Positions 2,140 through 4,151 of a stretch of DNA of 64,000 nt are shown in pieces. Below the pieces are notes generated by a model. The model saw only the letters and a list, made by a program, of their open reading frames with translations. It was not told the origin of the DNA and made no database searches. Origin of the DNA: the human T2T-CHM13v2.0 reference genome, Homo sapiens. The translations under genes were made by a program, and so were the position numbers. The stretch covers positions 7,008,001 through 7,072,000 of the forward strand of contig CP068257.2 in assembly GCA_009914755.4 (NCBI GenBank), given 5' to 3'. Numbering within the stretch: the stretch's first letter is position 1; each line of letters starts with the position of its first letter.

Positions 2140-3195
2140 AAATAAAACTGCACAAGTTCCTTAGTTGAATTAGATCCCGTTTGTCAATTTTGGCTTTTGT
2201 TGCCATTGCTTTTGGTGTTTTAGTCATGAAGTCTTTGCCCATGCCAATGTCTTGAATGGTATTGCCTAGGTTGTCTTCTAGGGTTATTATGGTTTTAGGT
2301 CTTACTTAAACATTTAAGTCTTTAATTTATCTTGAGTTAATTTTTGTGTAAGGTGTAAGGAAGGGGTCCAGTTTCAGTTTCCTGCATAAGGCTAGCCAGT
2401 TTTCCCAACACCATTTATTAAATAGGTAATCTTTTCCCCATTGATTATTTTTTGTGAGGTCTGTCAAAGATCATATGGTTGTAGATGTATGGTGTTACTT
2501 CTGAGGCCTCTGTTCTGTTCCATTGGTCTATATCCCTGTTTTGGTACCTGTACCATGTTGTTTTCATTACTATAGCCTTGTAGTATAGTTTGAAGTCAGG
2601 CAGCGTGATGCCTCCAGCTCTGTTCTTTTTGGTTACAATTGTCTCAGCTATATGAGCTCTTTTTTGTTTCCATATGAAATTTCCAGTAGTTTTTTTCTAA
2701 TTCTGTGAAGAAAGTCAATGGTAGTCTATAGCACTGAACCTATAAATTACTTTGGGCAGTATAGACATTTTCATGATATTGATTCTTCCTATCCATGAGC
2801 ATGGAATGTTTTTCCATTTGTTTGTGTCCTCTCTTATATCCTTGAGCAGTGGTTTGTAGTTCTCCTTGAAGAGGTCTTTCCCATCCCTTGTGAGTTGTAT
2901 TCCAAGGTATTTTATTCTCTTTGTAGCAACTGTGAATGGGCATTCACTCATGATTTGGCTGTTTGTCTTTTATCGTTGTATAGGAATGCTTGTGATTTTT
3001 GCACACTGATTTTGTATCCTGAGACTTTGCTGATGTTGCTTATCAGCTGAAGGAGATTTGGGGCTGAGACGTTTTGGTTTCCTAAATATACAATCATATC
3101 ATCTGCAGAGACAATTTGACTTCCTTTTTTCCTATTTGAATTCCTTTTATTTTTTCCTCTTGTCTGATTGCCCTGGCCAGAACTTCCAATACCAT
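2140..3195 (-). mobile_element. old L1 (L1PB/L1MA-like) ORF2 segment, inverted 5' part of a twin-primed insertion
   Basis: Minus-strand ORFs 2715-2951 and 2948-3214 translate to L1 ORF2 motifs (FADDMIVY.., [54 protein letters not shown]). The reverse complement of L1 'gacaaatgggatctaat..' lies at 2165-2200. Confidence 0.85.
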
Positions 3196-4151
3196 TATCA
3201 GAGTGAACAGGCAACCCACAGAACAGGAGAAAATGTTTGCAATCTCTCCATCTGACAAAAGGCTAATATCCAGAATCTAAAAGGAACTTAAACAAATTTA
3301 TGAGAAAAGAACAAACAACCTCATCAAAAAGTGGGTGAAGGATATCCTCAAAAGAAGACATCTATTCAGCCAGTAAACATATGAAAAAAAGGCTCATCAT
3401 CACTGAACATTAGAGAAATGCAAATCAAAACCACAATGAGATATCATCTCACGCCAGTTAGAATGGTGATCATTAAAAAGTCAGGAAACAACAGATGCTG
3501 GAGAGGATGTGGAGAAATAGGAACACTTTTATATTGTTGGTGGGAGTGTCAATTATTTCAACCACTGTGGAAGACAGTGTGGTGATTCTTCAAGGATCTA
3601 GAACCAGAAATACTATTTGACCCAGCAATCCCATTACTGAATACATACCCCAAAGATTAAAAATCATTCTACTCTAAAGACACATGCACATGTATGTCTA
3701 TTGCAGCACTATTCACAATAGCAAAGACTTGGACCCAACCCGCATGCCCATCAGTGATAGGCTGGATAAAGAAAATGTGGCATATACACATCATGGAATA
3801 CTATGCAGCCATAAAAAAGGATGAGTTCATGTCCTTTGCAAAGACATAGATGAAGCCTGAAACCATCATTCTCAGCAAACTAACACAGGAAAAGAAAACC
3901 AAACGCCACATTTTCTCACTCGTAAGTGGGAATTGAACAATGAGAACACATGGACACAGGGAGGGGAACATCACACACCGGGGCCTGTCAGGGGGTTGGT
4001 GTCCTAGGGGAGGGATAGTATTAGTAGAAATACCTAATGTAGCTGATGGGTTGATGGGTACAGTAAACCACCATGGCATATGTATGCCTATGTAAAAAAC
4101 CTGCATGTTCTTCACATGTATCCCTGAACTTATGGTATAATACAAAACAAA
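3196..4151 (+). mobile_element. L1 3' segment (ORF2 C-terminus, 3'UTR and A-rich tail), direct part of the same twin-primed element
   Basis: 'atcagagtgaacaggcaacc', 'caaatcaaaaccacaatgagatatcatctcac..ggaaacaacagatgctggagaggatgtggagaaatagg', and 'gggaattgaacaatgagaacacatggacacag' through 'acaaaacaaacaaaccaac'. The L1 coordinate at the junction with the inverted piece fits twin-priming topology. Confidence 0.85.

What the first reader, a model, noticed from the sequence alone, without database searches (positions are those of the whole stretch)
2140..4151. Twin-primed (5'-inverted) old L1 shared by A copies A1 and A4, which dates a 4-kb or larger segmental duplication to after the L1 insertion
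At 2140-3195 the L1 ORF2 runs antisense, from about L1 position 5420 at 2140 down to about 4320 at 3195. It is joined to sense-strand L1 from about 5440 to the tail at 3196-4151. This is the topology L1 twin priming produces. The identical inversion junction ('cttccaa.ac.at|atcagagtgaacagg') is present at 33765/33766 in A4, so one insertion event was copied when A1 and A4 duplicated (about 8% divergence). In A4 the direct arm is cut after 465 bp by the (GT)n(AT)n and HSat3 block at 34229. The satellite edge is therefore younger than the duplication.
Basis: partly seen in the sequence, partly recalled or inferred. Interest (0 to 1): 0.5.

Follow-up and report, generated by a model that had tools for sequence, protein, structure and literature searches.

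The report
Twin-primed old L1 copied by duplication
This is one ordinary, roughly 8%-decayed L1PA retrotransposon whose front half went in backwards (the common "twin priming" outcome), and it was later copied along with its surroundings by a pericentromeric segmental duplication.

Summary
Observation confirmed, with small corrections. The antisense L1 ORF2 arm is 2148-3196 (ORF2p aa ~670-1021). It is joined to a sense arm at 3197-4142 (aa 1027 to the 3' end), followed by an A-rich tail at 4143-4160. In L1 coordinates the arms abut, with 8-14 nt missing and an ACTAT microhomology at the joint.

Both arms carry the same older-L1PA diagnostic bases and show the same decay (7.9% and 8.2%). The same inner junction (33765/33766) and outer junction (32722/32723) occur in A4. 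A1 and A4 also share 19 private L1 mutations, so one insertion preceded the duplication.

Corrections:
- A1-A4 divergence is about 10% by substitutions (13% counting gaps), not 8%.
- The element is L1PA-type, not L1PB/L1MA.
- The satellite edge may be the duplication breakpoint itself, so it need not be younger.

New points:
- A metagenome contig (L002) is a third copy, 98.6% identical to A1.
- No normal short TSD exists. The L1 is bracketed by a ~180-bp direct repeat that is single-copy in the neighbouring L1-free unit. The two copies differ by 29%, and the downstream one matches the neighbour at 88-90%.
- This is probably a long TSD later overwritten by gene conversion, but that is unproven.

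The finding is ordinary biology and of low interest.

The parts
1968..2147 (+). X: upstream copy of the ~180-bp direct repeat that brackets the L1. It ends in AAATAAAA, directly against the inverted arm.
   Evidence: BLAST pairs 1968-2142 with 4162-4335 at 71.9%. In A4 the homologous left edge carries TTTTTTT/AAAAAAAAA, an L1 endonuclease-type site.
2148..3196 (-). Inverted (internally primed) L1 arm, covering ORF2p aa ~670-1021 (late RT/thumb region).
   Evidence: matches L1-C 46851->45796. (PDB ORF2p aa 671-702 and 927-1021). (boundaries).
3192..3201 (.). Inversion junction at 3196/3197. The ancestral sequence was ...CTTCCAATACTATG|ATCAGAGTG..., and ACTAT is shared with the sense-strand L1 sequence just upstream of the direct arm (microhomology).
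   Evidence: older-type consensus compared with A1, L002 and A4.
3197..4142 (+). Direct (poly(A)-primed) L1 arm. It covers ORF2p aa 1027-1275 (stop 3934-3936) and the L1PA-type 3' UTR.
   Evidence: matches L1-C 46869-47827. (ORF2p aa 1027-1075 and 1096-1158)..
4143..4160 (+). Degenerate A-rich tail (CAAAACAAACAAACCAAC). Part of it may be the target's own A-run.
   Evidence: The homologous A-runs in U2 (AAAAGTAAAAAACG) and upstream of A4 (AAAAAAAAA) precede TTAATTCA.
4162..4340 (+). X': downstream copy of the ~180-bp direct repeat. It is 70.7% identical to X but 88-90% identical to the single X of the neighbouring unit U2.
7575..7750 (+). Single X in the L1-free paralogous unit U2, i.e. the 'empty-site' state. 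It overlaps the alignments of both A1 flanks.
   Evidence: 355-2134 pairs with 5977-7751; 4149-5069 pairs with 7566-8433..
1..2147 (+). A1 flank that was duplicated together with the L1. The homology runs to the window's left edge.
   Evidence: 1-3639 pairs with 30525-34218, 86.9%. (flank divergence 9.2%).
30525..32722 (+). A4 flank, paralogous to 1-2147.
32723..33765 (-). A4 copy of the inverted arm.
   Evidence: 32728-33765 pairs with L1-C 46849->45795..
33766..34229 (+). A4 copy of the direct arm, cut off after 464 bp.
   Evidence: 33760-34227 pairs with L1-C 46863-47334.
34230..34265 (.). (GT)n(AT)n microsatellite at the end of A4. The (ATTCC)n satellite follows from 34266.
   Evidence: (TRF: 34266-39315, period 5).

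Best explanation
A single L1PA RNA of an older primate subfamily, now about 8% decayed, integrated by target-primed reverse transcription with twin priming.

**Insertion steps (inferred from the anatomy).**
- The bottom strand was nicked at the T-run/A-run at the left edge of segment X. It primed on the poly(A) tail and produced the sense arm (3197-4160).
- The top-strand 3' end, about 180 bp downstream at the right edge of X, primed inside ORF2 near codon 1022. It produced the antisense arm (2148-3196), which extends back to codon ~670.
- The two cDNAs were joined at an ACTAT microhomology, with loss of 8-14 nt of L1.

**What followed.**
- After about 1.5-2% further decay, a segment of at least 3.6 kb carrying the element was duplicated. 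This gave A1 and A4, now about 10% apart, or about 5% per lineage.
- A4 ends inside the sense arm at 34229, against (GT)n(AT)n and (ATTCC)n satellite. That end is either the duplication breakpoint or a later truncation.
- A third copy (L002) split from A1 only about 1.4% ago.

**Shown:** the topology, the contiguity of the arms, their shared subfamily and age, the shared junctions and the shared private mutations.

**Inferred:** the priming steps, and the origin of the ~180-bp flanking repeat. My preferred reading of that repeat (about 50%) is an unusually long TSD whose downstream copy X' was later overwritten by gene conversion from the adjacent unit U2.
For: **Topology and contiguity.**
-.
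- Arm lengths (~1050 and ~950 bp) and a gap of 20 nt or less are typical of 5'-inverted germline L1s. In PMC12016303, 46% of such insertions have arm ends within 20 bp, and 18-22% of all L1 insertions are 5'-inverted.

**One subfamily and one age.**
- I piled up 95 L1 copies from 120 metagenome contigs.
- Of 33 diagnostic states, 23 lie in the inverted arm and 10 in the direct arm. The same contiguous older copies share both sets (L097, L075, L032, L115, L029, L107; r=0.87).
- Distance to the older-type consensus: A1 7.9% (inverted) and 8.2% (direct); A4 7.1% and 8.6%.

**Insertion before the duplication.**
- Junctions are identical in A1, L002 and A4.
- A1 and A4 share 19 private L1 changes, at 1.5% and 1.3% per arm.
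- Flank divergence is 9.2%, against 10.8% and 11.5% for the two arms.

**Third copy.** L002 is 98.63% identical to window 1608-4238. It has 15 window-derived and 10 L002-derived changes.

**Long-TSD reading.**
- The L1-free unit U2 has one X where A1 has two.
- An endonuclease-type TTTT/AAAA site sits at the left edge of X.
- TSDs longer than 100 bp are documented but uncommon (PMC5223499).
- Divergence of the downstream flank from U2 rises away from the L1: 10%, then 19%, then 26%. That reaches the upstream background of 25.7%, as a conversion tract abutting the L1 would.
Against: **Against twin priming as usually defined.**
- No canonical 10-17-bp TSD is detectable. The best local match scores 6, against a shuffle mean of 6.8.
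- 5'-inverted insertions normally have such TSDs: 17 of 17 in the HeLa data cited in PMC2912911.
- There is no microhomology between the end of X (…AAATAAAA) and the L1 RNA at the internal priming site.

**Against the long-TSD reading.**
- X and X' differ by 29% (51/174). An insertion about 8% old allows roughly 16% (p=8e-6).
- X' groups with U2: site patterns are 34 vs 7 vs 6, and the relative-rate test gives p=8e-6.
- The present sequences therefore carry no direct trace of a TSD. Only the architecture supports it, and a conversion event has to be added.

**Naming.** The subfamily could not be named because no Repbase or Dfam library was available.
Confidence: 0.85

Rival explanations
1. The ~180-bp repeat is not a TSD. 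The twin-primed L1 bridged two neighbouring, already diverged tandem A units. It joined the end of X in unit a to the start of X in unit b and deleted about one unit (~3.3 kb) during integration. This would be an L1 insertion-mediated deletion.
For: X and X' are 29% apart, about the same as the unit-to-unit divergence of ~26%. The region is a tandem array of ~3.5-4-kb units. As a whole, the downstream flank is closer to U2 than the upstream flank is (19.3% vs 25.7%, Fisher p=4e-4). No short TSD is present.
Against: The deletion would have to equal one unit to within about 5%. The downstream divergence from U2 is not uniform (10% in X' vs 21% beyond, p=0.002), so a conversion patch is needed in this model too. 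In cell assays, large target alterations go with 5'-truncated insertions rather than 5'-inverted ones (PMC2912911).
Confidence: 0.12
2. X was already tandemly duplicated (X-X') in this unit. The L1 inserted exactly at the A-rich joint between the two copies, with a normal short A-rich TSD that can no longer be recognised.
For: Both edges of X are A-rich, and the left edge is a good endonuclease site. The AAATAAAA upstream and the AAAACAAAC downstream could be a decayed short TSD. The high X/X' divergence then needs no special explanation.
Against: This needs an extra event and an insertion exactly at its joint. U2 shows no trace of a second X. The candidate short TSD does not exceed chance.
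Confidence: 0.12
3. A normal 5'-truncated L1 (ORF2 codon ~670 to the tail) inserted first. A later local DNA inversion then flipped its first ~1.05 kb.
For: The final topology would be the same. Pericentromeric DNA is prone to rearrangement.
Against: One inversion breakpoint would have to fall exactly at the element's 5' end and remove only 8-14 nt. Twin priming produces this structure in 18-30% of L1 insertions.
Confidence: 0.04
4. Two independent L1 insertions in opposite orientation happen to lie side by side.
For: L1s are dense in this window, for example L1-C at 44235-47850.
Against: The arm ends coincide in L1 coordinates to within 14 nt. The antisense arm has no 3' UTR or poly(A) of its own, and no further piece of it lies beyond the sense arm. 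Both arms have the same diagnostic bases and the same private decay.
Confidence: 0.02
5. On the reader's last inference: position 34229 is the original end of the duplicated segment, which was pasted next to satellite. It is not a later truncation, so the satellite edge is as old as the duplication rather than younger.
For: No homology to A1 3640-5069 reappears anywhere beyond the satellites. Duplicated segments that end at simple or satellite repeats are common in pericentromeric DNA (general knowledge, not tested here).
Against: None is decisive. A later deletion or satellite expansion would look the same within this window.
Confidence: 0.45

Closest known systems
Twin-primed (5'-inverted) L1 insertions (Ostertag & Kazazian 2001, as cited and characterised in PMC12016303 and PMC2912911)
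   Same: It has an antisense 5' arm and a sense 3' arm with the only A-tail. The arms are adjacent in L1 coordinates with a small loss (8-14 nt). There is microhomology (ACTAT) at the inversion joint. Arm lengths are typical of germline events, and an endonuclease-type site sits at the 3' junction.
   Different: No recognisable 10-17-bp TSD is present. The element is instead bracketed by a ~180-bp direct repeat whose copies are 29% diverged. No microhomology is seen at the target/inverted-arm junction.
L1 insertions with very long TSDs (>100 bp), reported from cell-culture recovery assays (Gilbert 2002/2005 and Symer 2002, as cited in PMC5223499)
   Same: A target segment that is single-copy in the L1-free paralog is present on both sides of the L1. 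It starts at the endonuclease site next to the A-tail.
   Different: The two copies fail the age test for a TSD (29% observed, about 16% expected). The downstream copy now resembles the neighbouring unit, so a later gene conversion has to be assumed.
L1 insertion-mediated deletions
   Same: There is no canonical TSD, and the flanks belong to sequence lineages that were already diverged.
   Different: The deleted material cannot be seen. The flanks overlap by 180 bp of paralogous sequence instead of showing a plain gap. The 5'-inverted structure is unusual for deletion-type events.
Pericentromeric segmental duplications dated by shared transposon insertions
   Same: The same L1 with the same junctions and shared private mutations is present in both paralogs. 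The L1 and its flank have diverged about equally (~10%).
   Different: Nothing unusual. One end of the duplication is hidden by the window edge and the other lies at a satellite boundary.

Membership tests
LINE-1 (L1PA-type) element | Sequence encodes ORF2p (RT to C-terminal domain). | tested here: met
   phmmer hits to human ORF2p structures 8uw3, 8sxt and 9k6g. The aligned stretches are aa 671-702, 927-1021, 1027-1075 and 1096-1158, with E-values from 7e-9 to 1e-47.
LINE-1 (L1PA-type) element | L1PA-type 3' UTR ending in an A-rich tail. | tested here: met
   3937-4142 aligns with the 3' UTR of L1-C and of the metagenome L1PA copies. A degenerate A-rich tail lies at 4143-4160.
LINE-1 (L1PA-type) element | Assignment to a named subfamily by a Repbase/Dfam consensus. 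| not testable with these tools
   No repeat library was available, and the Khan 2006 and Wagstaff supplements are not held. As a proxy, the element is 7.9-8.2% from a consensus of 37 older-type L1PA copies and ~10% from the young-type consensus.
Twin-primed 5'-inverted L1 insertion | The 5' part is inverted relative to the 3' part, and only the 3' part carries a poly(A). | tested here: met
Twin-primed 5'-inverted L1 insertion | Arms are adjacent in L1 coordinates, with a small gap or overlap. | tested here: met
   The inverted arm ends at L1-C 46854 and the direct arm starts at 46869 (or 46863 if the ACTAT microhomology is counted). ORF2p aa 1022-1026 are missing.
Twin-primed 5'-inverted L1 insertion | Both arms derive from one source RNA (same subfamily, same age). 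| tested here: met
   Diagnostic-site sharing correlates between arms at r=0.87. Private pre-duplication changes are 1.5% and 1.3%. Distances to the consensus are 7.9% and 8.2%.
Twin-primed 5'-inverted L1 insertion | A single TSD flanks the whole composite element. | tested here: inconclusive
   No short TSD exceeds chance. A ~180-bp direct repeat has the right architecture, but its copies are 70.7% identical and the downstream copy groups with U2.
Twin-primed 5'-inverted L1 insertion | L1 endonuclease-type target (TTTT/AA) at the poly(A) junction. | tested here: met
   Homologous sites read TTTTTTT/AAAAAAAAA (upstream of A4) and CTT/AAAAGTAAAAAA (U2) at the left edge of X.
Twin-primed 5'-inverted L1 insertion | Microhomology between the target 3' end and the L1 RNA at the internal priming site (frequent, not obligatory). 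| tested here: not met
   The target ends in …CCAAATAAAA, whereas the complement of the L1 RNA there would be …TTTCTTTTG.
Segmental duplication carrying a pre-existing insertion | Both paralogs have the same insertion junctions and share private mutations inside the insert. | tested here: met
   There are 19 shared private substitutions. Flank and L1 diverge comparably (9.2% vs 10.8-11.5%).

The most novel reading that the evidence does not exclude
The twin-primed L1 did not make a TSD. Instead it bridged two adjacent, already diverged units of the pericentromeric tandem array, and its integration deleted about one whole unit. That would be a fossil example of L1 integration reshaping a tandem array, and the 180-bp 'repeat' would be paralogous overlap. 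A milder variant is that this is a germline 5'-inverted L1 with a genuine ~180-bp TSD.
Probability: 0.12. Interest if true: 0.3.

Novelty: already known. Interest (0 to 1): 0.15.

Why it matters
The element gives a relative time line for this pericentromeric block:
- The tandem A units are about 26% apart.
- The L1 insertion is about 8% old.
- The A1/A4 duplication followed, at about 5% per lineage. A conversion patch between U1 and U2 has a similar age.
- The L002 copy split from A1 about 1.4% ago.
- The A4/satellite junction is no older than the duplication.

This helps in reconstructing how this satellite-flanked region was assembled, but both the mechanism and the dating logic are textbook. 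The one mildly unusual feature is the ~180-bp flanking repeat in place of a normal TSD.

Tried and rejected
**Searches that gave nothing.**
- PDB search with the raw arm translation failed because of stop codons. I used stop-free peptides instead.
- I looked for published L1PA consensus sequences. Khan 2006 and Ostertag & Kazazian 2001 are not held. PMC3525338 and PMC8199441 have no usable supplements. I therefore built consensus sequences from 120 host-contaminant metagenome contigs.
- A viral-contig scan for the L1 20-mer found nothing.
- A genome-contig scan for the conserved core of X, aimed at other A-unit paralogs or a pre-insertion site, found nothing.

**Readings rejected.**
- Simple TSD reading of X/X': rejected by the divergence test (51/174 against an expected ~16%, p=8e-6) and the relative-rate test (34 vs 6).
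- Conversion in the direction X' to U2: rejected for the same reason, because X' would then still be the original TSD copy.
- Canonical short TSD: not above chance.
- Uniform divergence of the downstream flank from U2, as the plain deletion model predicts: rejected (p=0.002).

**Method note.** The first pile-up-based A1-A4 distances (11.4% and 12.6%) were replaced by those from a global pairwise alignment (10.8% and 11.5%).
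Full report
**Setting**

The window looks like primate pericentromeric DNA.
- Old tandem 'A' units of about 3.5-4 kb are 70-76% identical. U1 spans about 86-5633, U2 spans 5633-9693, and a stub of U3 lies at 9693-10192.
- A younger copy, A4 (30525-34218), is 86.9% identical to window 1-3639.
- An (ATTCC)n satellite occupies 34266-39484.
- A 68-bp beta-type satellite occupies 39491-44233.
- A long sense-oriented L1 (L1-C) occupies 44235-47850.

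**Checking the observation**

L1-C serves as an uninverted ruler.
- Window 2149-3195 matches it on the minus strand (46851->45796, 84%).
- Window 3197-4142 matches it on the plus strand (46869-47827, 81%).

Stop-free translated pieces hit the solved human LINE-1 ORF2p structures (8uw3/8sxt numbering).
- The inner end of the antisense arm is aa 670/671.
- Its outer end is aa 1021.
- The sense arm begins with IRVNRQPT at aa 1027 and runs through the Cys-rich C-terminal region to the stop codon at 3934-3936. An L1PA-type 3' UTR and a degenerate A-rich tail (4143-4160) follow.

A4 has the same structure. Its antisense arm is 32723-33765 and its junction is 33765/33766. Its sense arm, 33766-34229, is cut off after 464 bp by (GT)n(AT)n and then (ATTCC)n.

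The corrections are small:
- The A1 junction is 3196/3197.
- The 8 bases at 2140-2147 (AAATAAAA) are flank, not L1.
Taking the ORF2 ATG near nt 1991 (from memory), the arms are about 3997-5054 and 5069-end.
- A1-A4 divergence is about 10% by substitutions (357/3597), or 13% when gap columns are counted. It is not 8%.

**One element or two?**

No repeat library was available. I scanned metagenome contigs for a conserved L1 20-mer next to the junction and obtained 120 host-contaminant L1 loci. Ninety-five of them were piled up on L1-C coordinates.

*Diagnostic and private sites.*
- At sites where A1 and A4 agree (1300 sites), 52 differ from the majority, young-type consensus.
- Thirty-three of these are states shared by a substantial subset of older copies. 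They are subfamily-diagnostic: 23 lie in the antisense arm and 10 in the sense arm.
- Nineteen are private: 14/904 in the antisense arm and 5/396 in the sense arm.

*Same subfamily.* The contiguous, uninverted copies that match the diagnostic states of one arm also match those of the other (L097, L075, L032, L115, L029, L107). Across 31 copies the correlation is r=0.87.

*Same age.* Against a consensus of 37 such older-type copies, A1 is 7.9% (antisense arm) and 8.2% (sense arm) diverged. A4 is 7.1% and 8.6% diverged.

Both arms therefore have the same subfamily signature, the same total decay and the same pre-duplication decay.

*Junction detail.*
- The ancestral inversion joint was …CTTCCAATACTATG|ATCAGAGTG….
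- In the older-type consensus, the sense sequence just before the direct arm reads …AAACTATC|ATCAGAG. An ACTAT microhomology therefore sits at the joint.
- Only 8-14 nt of L1 (CAAAAGAA[ACTATC]) are missing.

*Comparison with published data.*
- 18-22% of L1 insertions are 5'-inverted.
- 46% of those have arm ends within 20 bp of each other.
- Median germline arm lengths are 751 and 571 bp (PMC12016303).
- Kojima reports about 30% 5'-inverted and microhomology at inversion joints (PMC2912911).

Two independent insertions, or a later DNA inversion, would each need precise coincidences. I rate them at 2% and 4%.

**Insertion before duplication**
- A1, A4 and a third copy all have identical inner and outer junctions.
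- A1 and A4 share the 19 private L1 substitutions.
- Flank and L1 have diverged about equally (9.2% vs 10.8% and 11.5%).

The L1 had decayed only about 1.5-2% when the segment of at least 3.64 kb was copied. The left end of that segment is hidden by the window edge. Each copy has since accumulated about 5%.

The third copy is metagenome contig L002 (OUNP010001995.1, 2632 bp). It is 98.63% identical to window 1608-4238. It has 15 window-derived and 10 L002-derived changes when polarised with A4. It is a real sister copy, either an ape ortholog or a recent paralog, and not an assembly artefact.

**The satellite edge**

A4 stops at 34229, and no homology to A1 downstream of 3640 reappears beyond the satellites. 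This shows that the A4/satellite junction is no older than the duplication. It does not show that it is younger, because it may be the duplication breakpoint itself. I rate the two readings about equally.

**The unexpected part: the flanks**

A twin-primed L1 should be framed by one 10-17-bp TSD. None exceeds chance here. The best local match scores 6, against 6.8±1.4 for shuffles.

Instead, about 180 bp upstream (X, 1968-2147) is repeated directly downstream of the A-tail (X', 4162-4340).
- The L1-free neighbouring unit U2 has a single X (7575-7750), which overlaps the alignments of both A1 flanks.
- The left edge of X is a T-run/A-run of the kind the L1 endonuclease cuts: TTTTTTT/AAAAAAAAA upstream of A4 and CTT/AAAAGTAAAAAA in U2.

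The architecture is exactly that of a 180-bp TSD. The sequences, however, do not behave like one.
- X and X' are 29% apart (51/174). An insertion about 8% old allows about 16% (p=8e-6).
- X' is 88-90% identical to U2's X. Site patterns are 34 (X'=U2≠X) vs 7 vs 6, giving a relative-rate p of 8e-6.
- Divergence of the downstream flank from U2 rises with distance from the L1: 10% in X', then 19%, then 26%. A second low patch of 15% lies at 4901-5069.
- The upstream flank is 25.7% from U2 throughout.

Whatever made the repeat, a conversion-like exchange with U2 has overwritten X', and it abuts the L1. This erased any direct evidence of how X' arose.

Three readings remain.
- **(a) A long TSD later converted by U2.** I favour this at about 50%. 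It needs only one structural event, and TSDs above 100 bp are documented, although they made up under 10% of recovered events in cultured cells (PMC5223499).
- **(b) Integration that bridged two neighbouring units and deleted about one unit** (about 12%).
- **(c) Insertion exactly at the A-rich joint of a pre-existing X-X' tandem** (about 12%).

The window alone cannot separate them. A scan for other copies of X in bacterial-genome contaminant contigs found none.

**Comparison with what is known, and verdict**

This is a standard 5'-inverted L1PA fossil inside a pericentromeric segmental duplication. Dating the duplication by the shared insertion is sound and routine. RepeatMasker would annotate it as two opposite-strand L1PA fragments.

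Novelty: already known. Interest: low (0.15). The only mild curiosity is the 180-bp flanking repeat, and orthologous or pre-insertion loci in other primates would settle its origin.

Noticed in passing
window 1968-2147, 4162-4340 and 7575-7750: A ~180-bp direct repeat brackets the L1 and is single-copy in the L1-free neighbouring unit. The two copies are 29% diverged. The downstream copy is 88-90% identical to the neighbour's, which suggests a gene-conversion patch abutting the L1.
   Followed up: yes
L002 (metagenome contig OUNP010001995.1), 1-2632: A third copy of the same twin-primed L1 with both flanks, 98.63% identical to window 1608-4238. Derived changes occur on both lineages (15 vs 10). 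It is either an ape ortholog or a recent paralog; the source organism is unknown.
   Followed up: partly
window 14121-19793 vs 19536-25808: Another tandem duplication of about 5.5 kb at 88-89% identity, close to the A1/A4 level. This hints at a common burst of duplication in the region.
   Followed up: no
window 25812-28474 vs 27692-30355: A 1.88-kb tandem pair at 83.5% identity. It is distantly related (57-65%) to the tail of the A units (4820-6151) and lies just upstream of A4.
   Followed up: no
window 34266-44233: The (ATTCC)n satellite (about 5.2 kb) runs with almost no spacer into a 68-bp-period beta-type satellite (69.5 copies, 39491-44233).
   Followed up: no
window 44235-47850: L1-C is a 3.6-kb sense-oriented, 5'-truncated, younger L1PA, about 5-7% from the young-type consensus. 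It starts within two bases of the end of the beta-satellite array. Whether it inserted into the array or marks its edge was not examined.
   Followed up: no
window 4901-5069 vs 8300-8437: A second patch of raised identity between U1 and U2 (15% divergence against a ~26% background). This suggests patchy conversion between the tandem units.
   Followed up: partly
loci L110, L021, L024, L009/L085/L095: Several of the fetched metagenome L1 contigs also have opposite-strand arm arrangements. They are unrelated 5'-inverted or nested L1s, which fits with how common such structures are.
   Followed up: no
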